DNA from: an uncultured archaeon
GTDB lineage: Archaea > Asgardarchaeota > Heimdallarchaeia > Heimdallarchaeales > Kariarchaeaceae
NCBI GenBank assembly: GCA_964645535.1
Contig: CAZYCQ010000009.1
Location: forward strand, 6,536 to 70,535
Length of the DNA: 64,000 bases
Direction: 5' to 3'
In this document: one piece after another, positions 2,367 through 32,393 of the stretch
How the letters are laid out: each line of letters begins with the position of its first letter
Numbering within the stretch: the first letter of the stretch is position 1
The notes under the pieces: generated by a model
What the model was told of the DNA's origin: nothing
The model's database searches: none
Seen by the model: the letters and a program-made list of their open reading frames with translations, nothing else
Program-made: the position numbers and the translations under genes

Positions 2367-2437
2367 GCGCACGTGGTGTAATGGCAGCATTGGAGCCTCC
2401 CACGCTCTAGATCCGGGTTCGAATCCCGGCGTGCGCA
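2367..2437 (+). tRNA. tRNA-Gly (anticodon CCC), no intron, CCA not encoded
   Basis: Hand-folded cloverleaf. Acceptor GCGCACG/CGTGCGC. Anticodon stem GGAGC/GCTCT with loop CTCCCAC. T arm CCGGG-TTCGAAT-CCCGG. Discriminator A. Confidence 0.9.
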
Positions 2438-2838: not shown

Positions 2839-2974
2839 GGAATGATGATAATTCTAACGATTTAGATTGTTTTCATTGAGACTAATTTTATAAAATCAAT
2901 TATTGTAGTTGTTGCACGTGGTCAATTTCAGGAAAGGATAGTTATATAAGTTGCAGAACCCTTGATAAAAATGT

Positions 2975-3709
2975 ATGCTAGAACTTCCGGATTTCGAGCG
3001 TCTTATTCCAACCGATGACGAAAAACATCCTTTGTTAACATTGAAGGGCAAGGAACGTCGTAATTATGCTATTTACTCATTTGGTGTGACTTTTTCAATT
3101 ACGGTGCTCCTGTATGTTTTCCCGTCGTATTTTGCCTTGGAAATGCTAACAACTAAAATGAGTTATTTCTTCCTTAATCTCTTTGGATTTAATCCTCGGT
3201 TGTTTATCTATGAAGACCAAACATCGACTTTAGGTTTTATCGATCGGACGTTATACAACTTGTATGATTCATCTCGTGCTACCTATCCTGCCATCTCAAT
3301 TGAAGGAAAAACCGGTGTTCCGAATTACTACATCATCATCCGTGCATGTACCGGCATGCAAGCTGGCGCTTTGCTTCTTGGTTTGATTTGGTCAACTCCT
3401 GCAAAGTTAAAGGATCGGATCAATGCCTCATTCATCGTCCTTGTTGTCCTATATATCGGCAATACACTTAGAATCGCTGCGATGATTGCAATTACGACGA
3501 TATTGACCCAGGATTTCGGGGTAGGTCATGAATATGCATGGACCTTGGCTCACGACCGAATGGGCGAACCATTGGGATTTGTAGGTACCATTCTCTTCAC
3601 GTTCATGATCGAGAAACGGCAGGTCAGGATACTTGACCCTATCACCATCTGGATTGATGTTCTCAATCAAGATGTCTATCAACCACTCAAGAAAAGATTT
3701 TTCAATTGA
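2975..3709 (+). CDS. exosortase/archaeosortase-family transpeptidase-like membrane protein
   Basis: Polytopic membrane protein. Contains IIIRACTGMQAG (Cys motif) and IGNTLRIAAM (N..R motif) with Cys-to-Arg spacing of 41 residues, then a downstream His (WTLAHD). This is the exosortase/archaeosortase signature. Confidence 0.7.
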   Translation: MLELPDFERLIPTDDEKHPLLTLKGKERRNYAIYSFGVTFSITVLLYVFPSYFALEMLTTKMSYFFLNLFGFNPRLFIYEDQTSTLGFIDRTLYNLYDSSRATYPAISIEGKTGVPNYYIIIRACTGMQAGALLLGLIWSTPAKLKDRINASFIVLVVLYIGNTLRIAAMIAITTILTQDFGVGHEYAWTLAHDRMGEPLGFVGTILFTFMIEKRQVRILDPITIWIDVLNQDVYQPLKKRFFN

Positions 3710-3773
3710 TTTGTGTGAAAAAGAATATAGTCTGCTCGAAAAGCTTATTTTTCCCGACAATTTTTGTTTAATC

Positions 3774-4424
3774 ATGAAAAGACTTGGCCTTCTGTTCATA
3801 ATTCTCCTGCTAGTTGGAGTTTCGCCAGCATCTGCAGAGATTTTGCTAGATGAAAACATTGTAATCGACACCTATTACAGATCTGATTTGGGAAATTCAA
3901 CATATCCAATAATGCTATGGTTTCTTCATAACCAATCTCTGGATGAACCCAATTTAGTAATGAATGCAAAAGTCATGGTTATTTCTGCAACTGATGAATT
4001 TTCTCTTAATTTAATTTTTGAGAAAAAATATGTTTCCAAAAATAATGGTTCATCTTCTATGTTCTCTCTCCAATTCAAGATGAAAATTCCCCTGTTAAAT
4101 GAAGGAGACACAGTCGAGCTTTCATTCATGTGGAATCGTGCTTTAAATCGATCCGACTTACCTTCCAGATTTATTCCGCAACCCTCTCAACTCCATTATT
4201 TTGAGGACTTTGCGATTCAACTTGAGGAATCCGGTTTTTGGGACAATCATGTCGAGTTGGAAATTTCTCTTTGGACTTCCTTCAATTCCTCAAAGGTCAA
4301 TAATTTGGATCCAATTTACCTAAACCATTCTATATCAAGGTCTGAAAACACTATGTCCCTTGGTTCATTATTGCTTTCTGGTATCTTTATTCCTGTTGTT
4401 ATACTATGGAGGCGACTGAAATGA
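3774..4424 (+). CDS. secreted protein rich in N-x-S/T sequons, with C-terminal TM + RR tail
   Basis: Signal peptide MKRLGLLFIILLLVGVSPASA at ATG 3774 (tracked ORF starts at 3633). Many N-x-S/T sequons. Tail MSLGSLLLSGIFIPVVILWRRLK. Confidence 0.55.
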   Translation: MKRLGLLFIILLLVGVSPASAEILLDENIVIDTYYRSDLGNSTYPIMLWFLHNQSLDEPNLVMNAKVMVISATDEFSLNLIFEKKYVSKNNGSSSMFSLQFKMKIPLLNEGDTVELSFMWNRALNRSDLPSRFIPQPSQLHYFEDFAIQLEESGFWDNHVELEISLWTSFNSSKVNNLDPIYLNHSISRSENTMSLGSLLLSGIFIPVVILWRRLK

Positions 4425-5272
4425 AAAAAGGGCTGATTTTAGTTCTATTGATCTTTTTTTCTTTGGGCAAAGTGAATGCAGTTGATCTGAATGACAAGGT
4501 GGAACCACTAACCCTTTCCACCTTGATTGATTTTCATCCATATGATAGACAGGCGATCGATTCCAATTCGTTTTCCGATTCAGGATACAATGCCTCCTCA
4601 ACTCTTGCGAAAACAATTTGGATCGGTGGTTTCCCCTTAGTTGAAGGTATTGCGGATGATGTGGATTTTACGAAACGACCAAATCTAATGTATGGAAATG
4701 TTTCAGTTCGTTTAATCTCATTTGATGGAAACACATCCCTTCAAATTTCTGTATTGGCTGTTCAAAGGACTGTTTCATTGGTTCCTGAACAGGGTTTTAC
4801 TGTTTCTTCCACTACATGGAGGGGGATATTTTCCGAAATAATGGCCTCTAACGTTACTTTGACTCGTGCCTTTGAATTCCCCACTGCCAATGATGTTGTT
4901 CAATTGTCTAATGGAAGTGAAATCTGGCAGGAATCTTACAATTATCTCTTGAAGTTTACCAATTCCACGATAAACTATGGAATGTTCCAGGTGGTTCTCA
5001 CATCAAATAACAATTGGACATATTCTGCAAGAGTTGAAGTAGAAATCCAAACGGTACACAATCCCGTATTCTTTAAAATAATGGAGGATCGTTATATGCA
5101 ATTTTACCCTTCAACTTCTCTTGTATCTTCAGTAATCAATTCAACCCAAGATTCTGTGCAAATTTCAACTTCCTTACACTCCTCGTCTTCAAGAGATGAA
5201 TCGTCCTATTCCTTGCTGGGATTGCTGATTTTACCTATAATCGTTATGCACCGGCGAAAAACCAAGAAATAG
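4421..5272 (+). CDS. secreted protein rich in N-x-S/T sequons, with C-terminal TM + RRK tail
   Basis: ATG 4421 overlaps the upstream TGA (ATGA). Signal peptide MKKGLILVLLIFFSLGKVNA. At least 8 sequons. Tail YSLLGLLILPIIVMHRRKTKK. Confidence 0.55.
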   Translation: MKKGLILVLLIFFSLGKVNAVDLNDKVEPLTLSTLIDFHPYDRQAIDSNSFSDSGYNASSTLAKTIWIGGFPLVEGIADDVDFTKRPNLMYGNVSVRLISFDGNTSLQISVLAVQRTVSLVPEQGFTVSSTTWRGIFSEIMASNVTLTRAFEFPTANDVVQLSNGSEIWQESYNYLLKFTNSTINYGMFQVVLTSNNNWTYSARVEVEIQTVHNPVFFKIMEDRYMQFYPSTSLVSSVINSTQDSVQISTSLHSSSSRDESSYSLLGLLILPIIVMHRRKTKK

Positions 5273-5455
5273 ATTGACTTGGCTAATTGCAAATTATATT
5301 TTTGTAATGTTCTTGGAAATATTTTGTTTATTTACATCTCTTTCAAGATGAGGTATGTTTGCTTTTGCTTGGAAATCTTCTTGTGTGATGATGATCCGAA
5401 GCTGAATCATTCCGCCAATAACAAAAAATAGGGGATTACTTTTGTAAAATTTTCT

Positions 5456-6097
5456 TTAATCATTTATTTTGTTTCTCTTTCTTCTTAGATGATTTGAAAA
5501 TAGTGCAAGCATTACACTTGAAACAATGAATTCAAAAAATGGGCTTGGTGTATCCTGAGTAATGGATGTGTACTCTTCACCAGAAATCCATCCCTCCCAT
5601 ACTGTAAGCATATTTGTTGCTGTGACTTCTTGATATGAAGCTTTCTCATTTATAATCAGCAGGACAGTTGCATAATATTGTGCAGTGGCATTAAGCATGT
5701 ATGTTTCAACTGTTACATTTACGGCCTTTGAAAAAATCGTTCCTTCGAATACGTCAAGTCTGTCAAAATTCAATGTTTTGTAACCTCCGGTTATGTAGTT
5801 CTCATGATCCAACTCATCTGGTTGATCTGGTTTTTCCTTGAAAATATTTACACTCAGGTCTATTTGGTAAAGGGCGGTAACATCTTTTCCGAAATCATCG
5901 CAGGTGACATTTACCCACATCCAGTAATTTTGATTCTTGTAGAAATTGGAATCGATCAGTAATTCAACGTCAAAAATCGATCCTGCCTCTGTAGTCACAG
6001 AGGTATTTACACTCTTCCTCAATGCTTGGGATGGTGTTGTCAATGTGGTTGCAAGTAGCAATCCTACAATCAATGCAAAAAATCCATGTTTGTTCAT
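5456..6097 (-). CDS. secreted protein with C-terminal TM + basic tail
   Basis: Signal peptide MNKHGFFALIVGLLLATTLTTPSQA. Tail PFFEFIVSSVMLALFSNHLRRKRNKIND. Confidence 0.5.
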   Translation of the reverse strand: MNKHGFFALIVGLLLATTLTTPSQALRKSVNTSVTTEAGSIFDVELLIDSNFYKNQNYWMWVNVTCDDFGKDVTALYQIDLSVNIFKEKPDQPDELDHENYITGGYKTLNFDRLDVFEGTIFSKAVNVTVETYMLNATAQYYATVLLIINEKASYQEVTATNMLTVWEGWISGEEYTSITQDTPSPFFEFIVSSVMLALFSNHLRRKRNKIND

Positions 6098-6379
6098 ATT
6101 TAATATTCTTCCGTGGCAATTTTTAATGAATGTGGTCTACTTTTCGGTTTTCTGCTTGATTTTCAATGTATTTTTTTGGGTATTTGTGTGTGGTCTGTGT
6201 TCCTTACATCTTAATGAAGATAAAAATGAATGGTTCACGGATACACAAGTCATTTATTTCAGATTCTAAACAGACCTCATCTATATTTGGATTGAAGATT
6301 GCACTCATTGTTGATTTTAGTTGCTGACTGGTAGTTTACAAATTTTTTGTTTCCCAGTTTGAATGGGGATTGCAATACC

Positions 6380-7258
6380 TTAAGTTGGAACTGCTCGTGC
6401 TCCATCAAATTCTAACTTTCCTTTGGTGATTAGATTTGAGATATGGCCCAAAATTGTATGTCTATAAAGGATATATTGGGTAATTTTTTCTTTTTTGAGT
6501 TTTAGGGCTTCATAGATCCATCCAACAATTTCGTGGATTTCTCCTCCTTGTTCTGGTATCTGTCTTAAAATTGACTGAGCAACAGTTTGGTAATGTTCGA
6601 TATTGATTTTGCAGGCATCTTTAATTTCCTTTTTTCCCGTGATCGCTCCTCCATGTCCCAATGCTAAGTGATCGATATCCAATTTTGAAATTTTGATTAT
6701 TGATTCTGTTGCCTCATTTGGATTCGATGCAAAAAGAAGTTTATGCTTTTCTATTGTCTCCTCCTTGAAAACGGAATCTCCTGAAAAGAGTGTTTTTCCG
6801 ACCAGAAATGCAAAATGATCAATGGAATGCCCTGGTGTCGAAATTGCCTTAATTGATGAAAATGGCTGTTCCGAAATGGGGTGTATCGTTTTTGCTGGTT
6901 TAGCCATTAAATGACGATTTGTCAATTCCTTTGGTGGATGAAAACCACAGAAAATAAGAGGTTCCAAGAACGTATCCATAAAAAAGGGGATTTCTCGTGG
7001 AGGGGTAAAGATATGGCTTATGCCCAAGGAATTGAGTTTAGATATCCCTCCCATATGGTCTGCATGGTGATGTGTGACCAATGCCGCAATTGGCTTTCTT
7101 CCAATTTGTTTAATGACCTTATTCATTATACTATTGTCAATTCCTGTATCTATCAGGACTGTTCCTTGATCTGAATTGATAATGCCTATGTTTACCGGTC
7201 CTTCCACAAATGCAACTTGATCATCAATGTAAGTGATCACAACTAGTGGTTTTTCCAT
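6380..7258 (-). CDS. MBL-fold metallo-hydrolase
   Basis: VTHHHADHMGG (HxHxDH motif), plus downstream His/Asp ligands (TPGHS, GDS, LGHGG). Confidence 0.8.
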   Translation of the reverse strand: MEKPLVVITYIDDQVAFVEGPVNIGIINSDQGTVLIDTGIDNSIMNKVIKQIGRKPIAALVTHHHADHMGGISKLNSLGISHIFTPPREIPFFMDTFLEPLIFCGFHPPKELTNRHLMAKPAKTIHPISEQPFSSIKAISTPGHSIDHFAFLVGKTLFSGDSVFKEETIEKHKLLFASNPNEATESIIKISKLDIDHLALGHGGAITGKKEIKDACKINIEHYQTVAQSILRQIPEQGGEIHEIVGWIYEALKLKKEKITQYILYRHTILGHISNLITKGKLEFDGARAVPT

Positions 7259-21529: not shown

Positions 21530-21991
21530 ATGGAGATTGCTGAACTAACCGCACAACAGGTCAATTCACTCATTCTTGAACAATTCGGCGTTTATTTGGA
21601 ATTGAAAGAAGAGGGACATTATTTTTTGTTTAGAAGAGAGGATGTTGAATATATTTCCTGGAGTCTGACTTCCCTTCCAGCAATGGAAAATGCCATTTCA
21701 TACGGGTTGCTGCTGTGTGCATATTCCCCAAAGAAAAAATTGGTGTATCCTTCAATTGTGGATAGAGTTTCTGGATATCCAACTGTTGAAATCCAATCCG
21801 TAAAAAAGGCAATAAAATTTTCAAGAGGAGAAAACGTTGCCTTACCTTCCCTTCAGGAATTCGAACAAAAACAAATCATTGTTACGCATAATGGATATCC
21901 TCTTGCTTTCGGTCAAGTTTTGTTTGGTGAATTTCAACCATTGATTGATATCGGTTGGTATCTCCGAGAAGCCGAAAAAGTTAGTCTTTAG
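21530..21991 (+). CDS. nip7: NIP7-like pre-PUA/PUA protein
   Basis: LTAQQVNSLILEQFG...GHYFLFRREDVEYIS...KFSRGENV...IIVTHNGYPLAFGQV...PLIDIGWYLRE parallels eukaryotic Nip7 (LTEEE..., Y.FR...DRVYYVS, PLGFG, DIGEY.R.E). ATG 21530 lies 2 nt after the NOP2/Sun stop. Confidence 0.65.
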   Translation: MEIAELTAQQVNSLILEQFGVYLELKEEGHYFLFRREDVEYISWSLTSLPAMENAISYGLLLCAYSPKKKLVYPSIVDRVSGYPTVEIQSVKKAIKFSRGENVALPSLQEFEQKQIIVTHNGYPLAFGQVLFGEFQPLIDIGWYLREAEKVSL

Positions 21992-22664
21992 TTTTTTCAT
22001 CTTCAAGGACCTGAGAAACCTTTTCTATCTCAGTTGCCCAAGAATCATATTCCAAGGCAAACGCAATTGCCATGATTCCAACCTTGTAAGAATAGATGAA
22101 AACTGCCATATTCCAGAAATTGAAATCTAACGGGACTATGTAGTAGTTTATGACAGCTGTTACAAACATGAACAAGGACACCAAAAAATTGATGGTAGCA
22201 AGAAGACGTAATCTTCTTCCTCTAGAATATGCGATAGGTGTTTTTGAGAGCATGAATATAACAATGGAAAAAAATATCGCTCCTAACGGTGCGGACCAAT
22301 AAAGCCAAATGAAATCTATTTCTATTCGAACTGTATTGATAAGTAATGAAAAAACGGTTATGAACCTCGATAACAAGGAGAAAAGGAGAAACAAGATAGT
22401 CATGACCATCGCCTCTCTCGGCTTTTCCATTTTTAGCACCAATGCAGGGATTACATATGCGTTGATCCCCCAATCGCCTAAAAAAATCAAACCCAAGATG
22501 ATTCCTATTCCTAGTGGTGGTGCCTGCCTAAAACGCAGTTCGATTCCACTCACATCCGCTATTGCTGCATAAAGAATCATTAGGGAAAAAAATTGAATCC
22601 CTGTAGACCACGATAGCCATCCCAATCGTTTTGCCAATTCCTTATCAGGCAAATTTTTAATCAT
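21981..22664 (-). CDS. polytopic membrane protein, unknown function
   Basis: About 6 hydrophobic helices; no recognised motif. Confidence 0.5.
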   Translation of the reverse strand: MIKNLPDKELAKRLGWLSWSTGIQFFSLMILYAAIADVSGIELRFRQAPPLGIGIILGLIFLGDWGINAYVIPALVLKMEKPREAMVMTILFLLFSLLSRFITVFSLLINTVRIEIDFIWLYWSAPLGAIFFSIVIFMLSKTPIAYSRGRRLRLLATINFLVSLFMFVTAVINYYIVPLDFNFWNMAVFIYSYKVGIMAIAFALEYDSWATEIEKVSQVLEDEKTKD

Positions 22665-30563: not shown

Positions 30564-32393
30564 ATGAAAAAACAATTTTTTATCGTCCTAATTCTGTTGG
30601 TTGGTGTTTTACCGACATCTTCCATACAGTTTTCCTCTAAAGAAAGTATTCAAATCTTCAAAAATCCTGAAACTGAATATCACTGGATCTGGGATGATCT
30701 TCTTGATCCAAATTTACCTGCAACTATTGCTGGTGATGATTCAGTCTATTGGGGATCGTCTCTAGGTCCATACTTCAATAGCACTGAAACAATTGCCAAA
30801 TTACAACTTGCTGCTGAACAATTTCCTTCAGTAGCAAAATATGTCAAAATAGGTGAATCGTATCTTGGAAAAGAGATCGGTGCTGTCCGTCTTTCTCTCC
30901 CCATTGAAACCCCGATGGCAGTTAAATATGAGTTTGCTCTTGTAGGGGCACACCATGCCAGAGAGGCAATAACTGTTGTGGATTCATTGTTTTTCATGGA
31001 TCGGCTTCTCTATAATTATCTAAATGGTGATCCATGGACTATCCAGTTGCTTTCACAAGCGGAGATTTATATTGTGCCATTGCTAAATCCTGATGGCTTG
31101 GATCACACTGCCATATCTCCTTGGCAAAGGAAAAACATGCATCCTTTCGATGAGGATGGGGATGGTTTTTCTGAAGATGAGTTTGAAATTAAGGATGTCA
31201 ATGGGGATAACTATGTTGAAGAATACTATGACCCTGATTTGGGAATGTGGATCTACGAATCAATTGACGGTATGGACAATGACACCTCTCATGGTGAAGA
31301 TAACCCTGGAGGGGTTGACTTAAATAGAAACTATCCGTTCGAATTTATGGGTCCAGGGTCTTCTTCAGATCCCCGGGATGATACATATCGTGGTCCAGCC
31401 CCCCTCTCAGAACCTGAGACGCAATCTTGGGCTCGTTTTGCACAACAACACCATTTCTTTACATCCCTTTCATTGCATTCCGGGATTCAAGCAATTATTT
31501 ATCCGTGGGGATATACTTCCTTACCGCCACCCGACGAAGATGTTTTCGTTGCCATAAGCAATGTTCTCAAGGGACTTTCAGGTTTTCCCACTTGGGATGA
31601 AGTCGGTGGCTATGGTGTTAATGGTGAATGGGGTGATTGGATGTATGGGGAACTTGATTCACTTGCATTTACGATCGAAACCTTTGGAAATTCCAGATCC
31701 TATAGGCAAATCCGAACAGTACGAGGAATTGATCGATATGGAGGGATATGGAATTATTTCAATCCGGAACCTGGAAATATCTATGAAACCACTGTTGGTG
31801 GTGTCCAACCCATGATCGATTTTTTGGCTTCTGTTCCTCTCCAGGGAATTGTTCCCACTGAGTTCACTATTCCCCAAATAAGCATGCAATCAAATTCCAC
31901 TCATATTTCGGTCACATTGCATATCAACACAACTCGGAATGATCTTATTGTCTCATTTGAAAGTGAAAACCAAACAGATCTGGGATGGTATCCATTGCAA
32001 GAGATCCAAGTCAATTCAAGTATTCCGCAATATGAGATCACGGCACAAAAAATTGATGTGCCAACTAGGATCTATGTTGGAACACTTTCTCAAGGATTTT
32101 CTTTCTATTTTGATACATCTTTGGCTGAAACAAATGGAACCTTTTCCCTTTCTCCAATCAATGGAACAAATGGTCCAGTTGACGTAGGGGTTCCTCCCGA
32201 ACCAGTATCTGAAACCACAAGTACGGTTGTATCTTCACAAAATTATTCAACTTCTACAGTTTCCTCATTTACAAATATTACGTCAGAATCTTTAGTTTCA
32301 TCTGAAGTTTCCATCCAACTTTTAGTGCTTCCTATTTCTCTATCTTCCGTGATGATCGTCCGTCGAAGACAACGGGTTCAAAAGAACGCATAA
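30564..32393 (+). CDS. secreted M14 zinc carboxypeptidase with C-terminal TM + basic tail
   Basis: GAHHAREAIT (HxxE), DLNRNYP, SLHSGIQAIIYPW. Signal peptide present. Ser/Thr-rich stalk and tail LLVLPISLSSVMIVRRRQRVQKNA. Confidence 0.8.
   Translation: MKKQFFIVLILLVGVLPTSSIQFSSKESIQIFKNPETEYHWIWDDLLDPNLPATIAGDDSVYWGSSLGPYFNSTETIAKLQLAAEQFPSVAKYVKIGESYLGKEIGAVRLSLPIETPMAVKYEFALVGAHHAREAITVVDSLFFMDRLLYNYLNGDPWTIQLLSQAEIYIVPLLNPDGLDHTAISPWQRKNMHPFDEDGDGFSEDEFEIKDVNGDNYVEEYYDPDLGMWIYESIDGMDNDTSHGEDNPGGVDLNRNYPFEFMGPGSSSDPRDDTYRGPAPLSEPETQSWARFAQQHHFFTSLSLHSGIQAIIYPWGYTSLPPPDEDVFVAISNVLKGLSGFPTWDEVGGYGVNGEWGDWMYGELDSLAFTIETFGNSRSYRQIRTVRGIDRYGGIWNYFNPEPGNIYETTVGGVQPMIDFLASVPLQGIVPTEFTIPQISMQSNSTHISVTLHINTTRNDLIVSFESENQTDLGWYPLQEIQVNSSIPQYEITAQKIDVPTRIYVGTLSQGFSFYFDTSLAETNGTFSLSPINGTNGPVDVGVPPEPVSETTSTVVSSQNYSTSTVSSFTNITSESLVSSEVSIQLLVLPISLSSVMIVRRRQRVQKNA

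What the first reader, a model, noticed from the sequence alone, without database searches (positions are those of the whole stretch)
2975..6097. Archaeosortase-family gene clustered with three sequon-rich secreted proteins carrying TM + Arg/Lys C-termini
2975..3709 carries the exosortase/archaeosortase signature: Cys in RACTG, Arg in NTLRI exactly 41 residues later, and a downstream His. At 244 aa it is small for the family.

Immediately downstream are two translationally coupled genes (ATGA overlap at 4421-4424), and a third lies convergent to them. All three have signal peptides and a C-terminal hydrophobic stretch followed by RR/RRK; the two downstream ones are dense in N-x-S/T sequons. 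The two downstream tails share a pattern (SLGSLLLSGIFIPVVILWRR and SLLGLLILPIIVMHRR).

None of the tails shows PGF, PEF or VPXXXP-type signatures. If these proteins are substrates, the sorting signal would be a different type. Small dedicated sortase-plus-target loci are how new sorting signals have been recognised before.
Basis: partly seen in the sequence, partly recalled or inferred. Interest (0 to 1): 0.6.

Follow-up and report, generated by a model that had tools for sequence, protein, structure and literature searches.

The report
Housekeeping Heimdall archaeosortase, incidental surface-protein neighbours
The 244-residue gene is a normal copy of an already catalogued protein-sorting enzyme of Heimdall-group Asgard archaea, and the three secreted glycoproteins beside it are ordinary examples of more than a hundred similarly tailed surface proteins in this genome, not a dedicated enzyme-plus-target cassette.

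Summary
ORF 2975-3709 is a real archaeosortase-family gene with Cys125, Arg166 (41 residues later) and His193, all invariant in 21 relatives. The three neighbours are exported, sequon-rich proteins ending in a hydrophobic stretch plus an Arg/Lys cluster.

The interpretation mostly fails.
- The enzyme is the curated heimdallarchaeosortase (NCBIfam NF045528, 220 bits, cut-off 130). Its curated partner signal is Heimdall-CTERM (NF045529).
- It is the only family member in this genome. It passes the cut-off in 58 of 61 sampled genomes of its class.
- About 115-153 proteins scattered over the genome carry the same kind of tail.
- Tail-bearing genes are not enriched beside 69 heimosortase loci.
- Sortase-N1-N2 adjacency holds only in two very close relatives, where the whole ~15-kb block is syntenic. 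It is broken in two same-genus genomes that keep the N1-N2 pair elsewhere.
- N3 is a singleton ORFan.

The N1 and N2 tails miss the curated PGF-type model but score as typical members of the genome-wide tail class, so they are not a separate new signal. Whether they are cleaved is unresolved; I put it at about 40%.

Earlier reports of this scan described the same Heimdall tail class on other DNA. Interest is low.

The parts
2942..2949 (+). TATA-like box TTATATAA, 26-33 nt upstream of the sortase ATG (possible archaeal promoter with a short leader)
   Evidence: Read from the sequence.
2975..3709 (+). Heimdallarchaeosortase, 244 aa. It is the only exosortase/archaeosortase-family gene in the genome.
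   Evidence: NF045528.1 scores 220.2 bits (cut-off 130). TIGR04178 scores 42.7 bits (cut-off 23) over residues 120-211. It is the single hit in the 89%-complete genome. Orthologues on two metagenome contigs are 95-96% identical.
3347..3349 (+). Codon of Cys125, the putative catalytic nucleophile in RACTG
   Evidence: Cys in all 20 determined sequences of the 21-sequence alignment (the 21st has a masked X there) and invariant in the 16-sequence alignment.
3470..3472 (+). Codon of Arg166 in NTLRI
   Evidence: Invariant in 21 heimosortases and 41 residues after Cys125.
3551..3553 (+). Codon of His193 in AHD
   Evidence: Invariant in 21 heimosortases. His185 in GHE is not conserved.
3774..4424 (+). 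N1: 216-aa exported protein with 6 N-x-S/T sequons and a tail ending WRRLK. First gene of a translationally coupled pair.
   Evidence: ORF and features. No Pfam or NCBIfam family. One homologue cluster was found in 5.8 billion proteins. Orthologues in L048, L050 and G002 are 43-56% identical and keep W-R-R-L/F-K at the end.
4356..4421 (+). N1 C-terminal tail SLGSLLLSGIFIPVVILWRRLK
   Evidence: No hit to Heimdall-CTERM even at E<=10. It scores at the 50th-78th percentile of the genome's tail class, and at most 2.4% of internal TM-to-basic junctions reach its score.
4421..5272 (+). N2: 283-aa exported protein with 8 sequons, predicted all-beta. Second gene of the pair; its start overlaps the N1 stop (ATGA).
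   Evidence: A small family: 10 representatives among 1.84 billion proteins. The AF2 model has mean pLDDT 57 and is all-beta. Foldseek gave no meaningful match (TM about 0.2).
5210..5269 (+). N2 C-terminal tail SLLGLLILPIIVMHRRKTKK
   Evidence: No hit to Heimdall-CTERM. It scores at the 70th-86th percentile of the tail class, and at most 0.5% of internal controls reach it. An inner L/I-P-hydrophobic motif is kept in 7 of 10 N2-family tails, including this one.
5456..6097 (-). N3: 213-aa exported ORFan with 4 sequons and the tail PSPFFEFIVSSVMLALFSNHLRRKRNKIND. Convergent with N2.
   Evidence: Only itself was found in 5.8 billion proteins. Window 5121-6413 has no nucleotide match in the syntenic contigs L048 and L050. 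Its hydrophobic core is weaker (mean KD 1.38). SPFFEF resembles the PGFEF of Heimdall-CTERM hits.

Best explanation
ORF 2975-3709 is this archaeon's single, housekeeping heimdallarchaeosortase. It is a polytopic membrane cysteine transpeptidase with Cys125, Arg166 and His193. By analogy with Haloferax ArtA, it is expected to cut off the C-terminal helix-plus-basic tail of exported surface proteins and transfer them to a lipid anchor.

Its likely clients are spread over the genome. About eight proteins carry PGF-type Heimdall-CTERM tails. About a hundred more carry a looser tail: a Pro-hydrophobic motif, a helix, then Arg/Lys.

N1 and N2 are a lineage-specific, translationally coupled pair of N-glycosylated, probably beta-rich surface proteins. 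N3 is a strain-specific ORFan of the same general type. All three carry tails of the genome-wide class. They sit beside the sortase through local gene order shared only with very close relatives, not through a dedicated functional cassette.

Shown here: family membership, conserved residues, single copy, dispersed tail class, non-conserved adjacency.
Inferred: catalysis and lipid anchoring. Whether N1-N3 are cleaved rather than simply helix-anchored is also inferred; my estimate is about 40% cleaved.
For: - Family: NF045528 scores 220 bits against a cut-off of 130, and TIGR04178 scores 42.7 against 23. Cys125, Arg166 and His193 are invariant in 21 sequences.
- General rather than dedicated: it is the only family hit in the genome. 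It passes the cut-off in 38 of 41 genomes of the order and in 58 of 61 of the class, with only one hit over the cut-off elsewhere in a 251-genome phylum sample.
- Dispersed clients: 153 C-terminal helix-plus-basic tails, 115 of them with a signal-peptide-like N-terminus. These differ from internal TM-to-basic junctions: outer Pro 76% vs 42%, inner phi-phi-P-phi-phi 19% vs 3%, Ser/Thr-rich linker 25% vs 12%.
- N1 and N2 are typical of that class.
- Adjacency is incidental. Among 69 heimosortase loci, tail-bearing exported genes occupy 2 of 132 positions at +-1 and 4 of 111 at +-2, no higher than the roughly 4-5% genome background.
- The N1-N2 cassette sits on another contig in G002 (sortase 84% identical). 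The probable but only weakly similar counterpart pair in G003 (N2 22% identity, E 7e-4; no significant N1 match) also lies on another contig.
- Adjacency holds only in L048 and L050/L051 (sortase 95-96% identical), where the whole PadR-to-rpoA1 block is collinear.
- N3 has no homologue anywhere.
- Analogy: ArtA cleavage and lipid anchoring, and its conserved active-site residues, are described in PMC6098224.
Against: - Three consecutive tail-bearing genes are rare in this genome. My census found one triple in 2717 gene triplets, and N3 itself fell below the hydrophobicity threshold. A run of three next to the only sortase is therefore not trivially expected.
- The adjacency does persist across three species-level lineages in which the neighbours have diverged to 51-64% identity.
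- The 64-nt gap between sortase and N1 does not exclude co-transcription.
- No experimental data exist for any heimosortase; I found no paper naming it.
Confidence: 0.78

Rival explanations
1. One reading: sortase plus N1, N2 and N3 form a small dedicated sortase-and-target cassette. The targets would carry a new sorting signal: a hydrophobic stretch with an inner Pro followed by W/H-RR.
For: - Sortase-N1-N2 order is kept in three lineages.
- The tails do not match Heimdall-CTERM or any other curated CTERM model.
- The inner phi-phi-P-phi-phi motif is shared by N1 and N2 and conserved in 7 of 10 N2-family tails.
- Runs of three tail-bearing genes are rare.
Against: - This is the sole, class-wide housekeeping sortase.
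- The cassette and the sortase are unlinked in G002 and G003.
- Targets are not enriched at 69 heimosortase loci.
- The inner-Pro motif occurs in 22 of 115 exported-protein tails scattered through the genome, so it is not private to this locus.
- Distant N2-family members carry the common outer Pro-hydrophobic motif.
- N3 is unrelated and strain-specific.
Confidence: 0.07
2. N1, N2 and N3 are plain type-I membrane proteins held permanently by their C-terminal helix. The sortase never touches them, and only the roughly eight PGF-type Heimdall-CTERM proteins are its substrates.
For: - Only 2 places in the genome pass the NF045529 cut-off and 6 reach E<0.01, all with S/L/A-PGF.
- N1-N3 give no hit.
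- In Haloferax, permuting the PGF motif blocks ArtA processing (title of the reference cited in PMC6098224).
- C-terminal helix-plus-basic tails also occur in three Asgard genomes with no archaeosortase signature, at 0.3%, 1.4% and 1.9% of genes.
Against: - The tails are 2-3 times more frequent in sortase-positive genomes (3.8%, 3.2% and 2.3%). The odds ratio is 2.4 (p=0.02) without this genome and 3.1 with it. The sample is small and the genomes are related.
- The hydrophobic stretches of N2 orthologues are short, 13-16 residues with a central Pro, which is marginal for a stable anchor.
- The protein ends 4-8 residues after the basic cluster, as in sorting signals.
- More than a hundred proteins sharing a Pro-edged tail with one conserved sortase suggests broader specificity than the curated model.
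Confidence: 0.45
3. The 244-aa protein is an inactive or repurposed archaeosortase homologue with no sorting role.
For: No heimosortase has been tested experimentally. PDB holds no relative, so no structure is available.
Against: - Cys, Arg and His are invariant across about 30-96% sequence identity.
- The protein is 95.5% identical between genomes whose neighbouring genes are 56-83% identical. Only RpoA1 (97.7%) is more conserved in the block, which indicates strong purifying selection.
- It co-occurs with Heimdall-CTERM proteins in the same genomes.
Confidence: 0.03

Closest known systems
Heimdallarchaeosortase (NCBIfam NF045528) with the Heimdall-CTERM sorting domain (NF045529)
   Same: The window protein is a full-length member at equivalog level: 220 bits against a cut-off of 130, covering model positions 1-197 of 199. 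It has the same conserved Cys/Arg/His, a similar size and the same taxonomic range. The genome also encodes PGF-type Heimdall-CTERM proteins.
   Different: Nothing about the enzyme differs. The three neighbours' tails do not match NF045529. In this genome the curated signal model captures only 2 tails over its cut-off and 6 at E<0.01, out of about 115-153.
Archaeosortase A (ArtA, TIGR04125) with PGF-CTERM in Haloferax volcanii, the only experimentally studied archaeosortase
   Same: Same superfamily signature (TIGR04178). The expected mechanism is the same: cleavage of a tripartite C-terminal signal and lipid anchoring of Sec- or Tat-exported surface glycoproteins. In both cases there is a single housekeeping copy with dispersed substrates.
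   Different: The ArtA model scores only 31 bits against a cut-off of 75. H. volcanii has nine predicted PGF substrates and ArtA genomes have up to 52 (PMC6098224), whereas this genome has over 100 tails with a much looser motif. No biochemistry exists for the Heimdall enzyme.
[quoted passage not shown]
   Same: A sortase gene lies immediately next to genes whose products have a signal peptide plus a C-terminal helix and basic tail.
   Different: [quoted passage not shown] Here there is one general enzyme, the adjacency is lost within the genus, and the tail type is genome-wide.
Permanent C-terminal transmembrane anchors of archaeal surface proteins (for example Sulfolobus SlaB, in an order that lacks archaeosortases)
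   Same: An exported, glycosylated protein with a single C-terminal helix and a short basic cytoplasmic end. Such tails also occur in sortase-free Asgard genomes.
   Different: The N2-family hydrophobic stretches are short, 13-16 residues, and contain Pro. The genome encodes a conserved sortase, and the tail class is 2-3 times more frequent than in sortase-free relatives.

Membership tests
Exosortase/archaeosortase superfamily (TIGR04178 signature) | Signature-domain HMM score above the curated cut-off | tested here: met
   42.7 bits against a cut-off of 23, residues 120-211. The six-frame search of the genome gave 45.1 bits.
Exosortase/archaeosortase superfamily (TIGR04178 signature) | Conserved Cys, Arg and His (the putative catalytic residues resembling the sortase triad) | tested here: met
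   Cys125, Arg166 and His193 are invariant in 21 aligned heimosortases. All three fall inside the signature match.
Exosortase/archaeosortase superfamily (TIGR04178 signature) | Polytopic integral membrane protein | tested here: inconclusive
   A crude Kyte-Doolittle scan finds strong hydrophobic windows at 31-58, 120-138 and 153-171. No topology predictor or coordinate-level model was available.
Exosortase/archaeosortase superfamily (TIGR04178 signature) | Triad residues brought together in the 3-D structure, and proteolytic/transpeptidase activity | not testable with these tools
   PDB holds no relative. The structure tool returns no coordinates, so I did not run a model of the sortase.
Heimdallarchaeosortase (NF045528) | Equivalog HMM score of at least 130 bits over the full model | tested here: met
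   220.2 bits, model positions 1-197 of 199. All other archaeosortase and exosortase subfamily models score far below their cut-offs.
Heimdallarchaeosortase (NF045528) | Occurs in Heimdall-group Asgard archaea | tested here: met
   The closest genomes are titled Candidatus Heimdallarchaeota or Kariarchaeota. The family passes the cut-off in 58 of 61 genomes of the class and in only one genome elsewhere in the phylum sample.
Heimdallarchaeosortase (NF045528) | The genome also encodes Heimdall-CTERM proteins | tested here: met
   Two places pass the 24-bit cut-off and 6 reach E<0.01, all PGF-type tails on exported proteins.
Heimdall-CTERM sorting domain (NF045529), asked of N1, N2 and N3 | HMM score of at least 24 bits | tested here: not met
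   No hit for the whole proteins at E<=1 or for the isolated tails at E<=10.
Heimdall-CTERM sorting domain (NF045529), asked of N1, N2 and N3 | PGF-like motif at the outer edge of the helix | tested here: not met
   N1 (S-L-G) and N2 (S-L-L-G) have no Pro at the outer edge. N3 has SPFFEF, a partial resemblance to LPGFEF.
Heimdall-CTERM sorting domain (NF045529), asked of N1, N2 and N3 | Tripartite architecture at the extreme C-terminus of a signal-peptide protein (hydrophobic stretch, basic cluster, end within about 10 residues) | tested here: met
   N1 and N2 score at the 50th-86th percentile of the genome's tail class.
Dedicated sortase-plus-target cassette | Adjacency of sortase and targets conserved across lineages | tested here: not met
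   Adjacency is kept only in two contigs whose sortases are 95-96% identical, inside a fully collinear block. It is lost in G002 and G003. There is no enrichment in 69 loci.
Dedicated sortase-plus-target cassette | The sortase is a specialised paralogue and the signal is confined to a few proteins | tested here: not met
   It is the sole copy in the genome. There are 115-153 dispersed tail-bearing proteins.

The most novel reading that the evidence does not exclude
The heimosortase of this lineage (the family that includes Kariarchaeota-labelled genomes) may recognise a much broader, uncatalogued signal than the curated PGF-type Heimdall-CTERM. That signal would be a helix edged by Pro-hydrophobic, or carrying an inner phi-phi-P-phi-phi just before the Arg/Lys cluster. 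In that case over 100 surface proteins per genome, including N1 and N2, would be cleaved and lipid-anchored. The N1/N2-type tail, with inner Pro only, would be a second recognition mode.
Probability: 0.15. Interest if true: 0.5.

Novelty: already known. Interest (0 to 1): 0.2.

Why it matters
How Asgard archaea build and anchor their cell surface is largely unknown, and no heimosortase has been tested experimentally.

This locus adds no new kind of system. The enzyme and its PGF-type partner signal are already curated.

The modest point worth keeping is quantitative. In this genome the curated signal model captures only a handful of more than a hundred Pro-edged C-terminal tails. One extremely conserved sortase is the only candidate processing enzyme.

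If those tails are substrates, lipid anchoring would be the main way this group attaches surface proteins. That would bear on models of Asgard surface architecture and virus or partner recognition. If they are not, they are ordinary helix anchors.

Tried and rejected
- Curated CTERM models on the three tails (NCBIfam, E<=10): no relevant hit. The tails cannot be filed under Heimdall-, Loki-, PGF-, PEF- or PEP-CTERM.
- Pfam and NCBIfam on N1-N3: nothing.
- Homologue searches:
  - N1: one cluster.
  - N2: three clusters, and only 10 representatives with a profile over 1.84 billion proteins.
  - N3: none.
  - No function could be transferred.
- AF2 model of N2 from a 5-sequence alignment: pLDDT 57, all-beta. 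Foldseek against PDB gave only jelly-roll or lectin-like matches at TM about 0.2, which I treat as meaningless.
- PDB search with the sortase sequence and with its profile: chance hits only. I ran no further search on the sortase because the tool returns no coordinates, so triad geometry could not be measured.
- Literature: no paper contains heimdallarchaeosortase, heimosortase or Heimdall-CTERM.
- Early reading corrected: I first concluded that the adjacency was not conserved at all. After finding two close metagenome relatives with the same order, I revised this to conserved only within a collinear block of near relatives.
- Census in sortase-free Asgard genomes: it shows a 2-3-fold difference, but with overlapping ranges (2.3% vs 1.9%) and only 3 vs 3 genomes. 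It is indicative, not decisive.
- My gene calls are longest-ATG ORFs and my signal-peptide test is a hydropathy rule. The counts (115, 153) are therefore approximate.


Full report
**Observation**

The window lies in a 3.6-Mb, 41% GC, 89%-complete genome. Its closest relatives are titled Candidatus Heimdallarchaeota, and one genome of the same family is labelled Kariarchaeota.

ORF 2975-3709 (+) encodes 244 aa. RACTG places Cys at residue 125. NTLRI places Arg at 166, exactly 41 residues later. AHD places His at 193.

N1 (3774-4424) ends in TGA, which overlaps an ATG at 4421 (ATGA). Orthologues of N2 start at the equivalent Met and keep the 4-nt overlap. N2 is therefore 4421-5272, 283 aa. N3 (5456-6097) is on the minus strand and convergent with N2.

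All three have N-termini that look like Sec signal peptides with A-x-A-type cleavage sites. This is by inspection only. Their C-terminal tails are:
- N1: SLGSLLLSGIFIPVVILWRRLK
- N2: SLLGLLILPIIVMHRRKTKK
- N3: PSPFFEFIVSSVMLALFSNHLRRKRNKIND

Sequon density per 100 aa is 2.8, 2.8 and 1.9. The genome mean is 0.61.

**What the sortase is**

NCBIfam gives heimdallarchaeosortase NF045528.1 at 220.2 bits (equivalog, cut-off 130, model positions 1-197 of 199). The superfamily signature TIGR04178 scores 42.7 bits (cut-off 23). All other subfamily models (XrtX, ArtA, ArtE, paceosortase, XrtH, ArtD, ArtH, ArtC) score far below their cut-offs. Pfam's Exosortase_EpsH model alone would have missed it (17.9 bits against 25.7).

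In an alignment of 21 heimosortases down to about 32% identity, Cys125, Arg166 and His193 are invariant. His185 is not conserved.

At 244 aa the protein is of normal size for the subfamily. Relatives are 231-299 aa.

PDB contains no relative, by sequence or by profile. No paper in the library uses the family's names. Its existence is therefore documented only by the curated models.

**General or dedicated enzyme?**

- It is the only exosortase/archaeosortase-family hit in the genome.
- The family passes its cut-off in 38 of 41 genomes of the order, almost always as a single copy.
- It passes the cut-off in 58 of 61 genomes of the class. Only one genome elsewhere in a 251-genome sample of the phylum passes.
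- Between this genome and the metagenome contig L048, the sortase is 95.5% identical. The neighbouring genes are 56-83% identical, and only RpoA1 (97.7%) is more conserved.

These are the properties of a core housekeeping enzyme.

**The tails in the genome**

A simple census used longest-ATG ORFs of at least 100 aa. It required an uncharged hydrophobic 13-mer, then at least 2 of 3 Arg/Lys, then the end of the protein within 14 residues. It finds 153 tails, 115 of them on proteins with a signal-peptide-like N-terminus. One example is an M14 carboxypeptidase in this window.

Compared with 231 internal TM-to-basic junctions from the same genome, the C-terminal tails differ in several ways:

| Feature | C-terminal tails | Internal junctions | Statistic |
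|---|---|---|---|
| Pro at the outer edge of the helix | 76% | 42% | p = 3e-9 |
| Inner phi-phi-P-phi-phi just before the basic cluster | 19% | 3% | odds ratio 7.6, p = 1e-6 |
| Ser/Thr content of the upstream linker | 25% | 12% | not tested |

It is a genome-wide sub-motif, not a private one.

The curated partner signal Heimdall-CTERM (NF045529, 26 positions) matches only PGF-type tails such as LPGFEF, PLPGFEG and SPGFGF. Two places pass its cut-off and six reach E<0.01. Across the order the yield is likewise a handful per genome.

N1, N2 and N3 give no hit, even at E<=10.

I built a leave-one-out position matrix from the other tails against the internal junctions.
- N1 and N2 fall at the 50th-86th percentile of the class.
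- At most 2.4% of internal controls reach their scores.
- N3 is typical only when the linker is included.

More distant members of the small N2 family carry the common outer motif (YPF, LPY, TPLP, YPI, FPM).

The neighbours' tails are therefore ordinary members of the local tail class, not a separate signal type.

**Is the adjacency meaningful?**

BLAST of N1-N3 against 20 heimosortase loci from related genomes found nothing.

N2 has a 50%-identical homologue in same-genus genome G002. It is preceded by an N1 homologue (43%) but sits on a different contig from the sortase. In G003 a probable counterpart pair lies on another contig; its similarity is weak (N2 22% identity, E 7e-4, and no significant N1 match).

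The protein database then revealed two closer relatives, L048 and L050/L051. In these the order PadR, DUF3179, zinc ribbons, globin, sortase, N1, N2..., MBL, NTP-transferase, TetR, rpoA1 is fully kept. The adjacency is thus conserved only where the whole ~15-kb block is collinear. It decays at the next phylogenetic step.

L048 carries a second tandem copy of the N1-N2 pair where this genome has N3. L050 has nothing there. N3 has no homologue among 5.8 billion proteins, and window 5121-6413 has no nucleotide match in the relatives.

Across 69 heimosortase loci from the class, exported tail-bearing genes occupy 2 of 132 positions at +-1, 4 of 111 at +-2 and 1 of 232 at +-3 to 6. That is no more than the 4-5% genome background.

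Against this, runs of three tail-bearing genes are rare. My census found one in 2717 triplets, and tail-bearing pairs are only about 2-fold over-represented. The local cluster is therefore unusual, but N1-N2 count as a single unit, and the arrangement is lineage-specific.

I sampled 400 kb from each of three Asgard genomes that are 95-98% complete and have no TIGR04178 hit. I did the same for two other heimosortase-positive genomes.

Exported tail-bearing genes, as a share of all genes:

| Genome group | Values |
|---|---|
| Sortase-free | 0.3%, 1.4%, 1.9% |
| Sortase-positive (samples, then this genome) | 3.2%, 2.3%, 3.8% |

The odds ratio is 2.4 (p = 0.02) without this genome and 3.1 with it.

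Such tails are thus not found equally without the sortase, but they do occur. The ranges nearly touch, and the genomes are few and related. The result is indicative only.

**Mechanism**

By analogy with Haloferax ArtA, the enzyme should cleave the tripartite C-terminal signal of exported surface proteins and transfer them to a lipid. For ArtA, cleavage, lipid anchoring and the importance of conserved active-site residues have been shown experimentally (PMC6098224).

N1 and N2 are a translationally coupled pair that can duplicate as a pair. They diverge fast and are heavily sequon-laden. N2 is predicted to be all-beta (pLDDT 57; no meaningful fold match). Most likely they form a two-subunit surface glycoprotein.

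Whether their tails are removed or serve as permanent anchors cannot be decided here.
- For processing: hydrophobic stretches of only 13-16 residues in N2 orthologues (N1's is about 18), a typical class score, and the presence of a single conserved sortase.
- Against processing: no PGF or outer Pro. In ArtA, permuting the PGF motif blocks processing.

I estimate about 40% that they are processed.

**Comparison and verdict**

The enzyme is a member of an already curated family. Its features match, and nothing about it is new.

The locus is not a dedicated sortase-target cassette, and the tails are not a new signal class.

Earlier reports of this scan on other genomes reached the same picture of Heimdall tails. 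They describe a PGF-type Heimdall-CTERM signal plus about a hundred Pro-hydrophobic tails. My census reproduces that picture independently for this genome.

Novelty: already known. Interest: low (0.2).

The residual novel reading has a probability of about 0.15. It holds that heimosortase specificity is far broader than the curated model, and that inner-Pro tails like those of N1 and N2 form a second recognition mode.

Noticed in passing
window 21981-22664 (-); L024 6962-7624, L025 2142-2810, L023 6950-7645, L030 5718-6410: A ~220-230-aa multi-helix membrane protein with no Pfam or NCBIfam family lies immediately next to the heimosortase in four related genomes (G001, G002, G003, G007). In this genome its homologue (51% identity) sits 18 kb away. 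It may be a conserved partner of the sortase.
   Followed up: partly
L029 8430-10216, L026 494-1889, L031 4137-5955, L027 5718-6227: In other genera of the same family the heimosortase is flanked by a ~165-aa gene of unknown family. In three of the four loci an exported, sequon-rich tail-bearing protein (274-380 aa) is also present. In this genome the homologues are on contigs C60 and C46.
   Followed up: partly
L048 8970-10447: A close relative carries a second, diverged tandem copy of the N1-N2 pair (39% and 36% identity) exactly where this genome has the unrelated ORFan N3. A third relative (L050) has nothing there. The slot downstream of N2 is a hot spot for surface-protein turnover.
   Followed up: partly
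window 2975-3709 compared with L048 and L051: The sortase is 95-96% identical between genomes whose flanking genes are only 56-83% identical. That is second only to RNA polymerase subunit A' (98%) and indicates unusually strong purifying selection.
   Followed up: yes
genomes G146, G206, G234, G239 (one family of the class): The heimosortase match lies in open frames of 491-509 aa, roughly twice the usual length. This suggests fusion to an additional domain in that family.
   Followed up: no
genomes G089, G161, G215, G221, G245, G252: Several genomes of another family in the class (g14/f5; the one I could match to a titled record, G245 = CP070760.1, is labelled only Candidatus Heimdallarchaeota) carry two heimosortase paralogues above the cut-off, unlike the single copy in this genome's order.
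   Followed up: no
window 30564-32393 (+): A 609-aa M14 zinc carboxypeptidase (Pfam E = 4e-47) has a signal peptide and a tail of the same class (LLVLPISLSSVMIVRRRQRVQKNA). It is an example of a secreted enzyme in the tail-bearing set.
   Followed up: partly
window 2367-2437 (+): tRNA-Gly(CCC) lies between the zinc-ribbon genes and the truncated-globin gene, about 540 nt upstream of the sortase.
   Followed up: no
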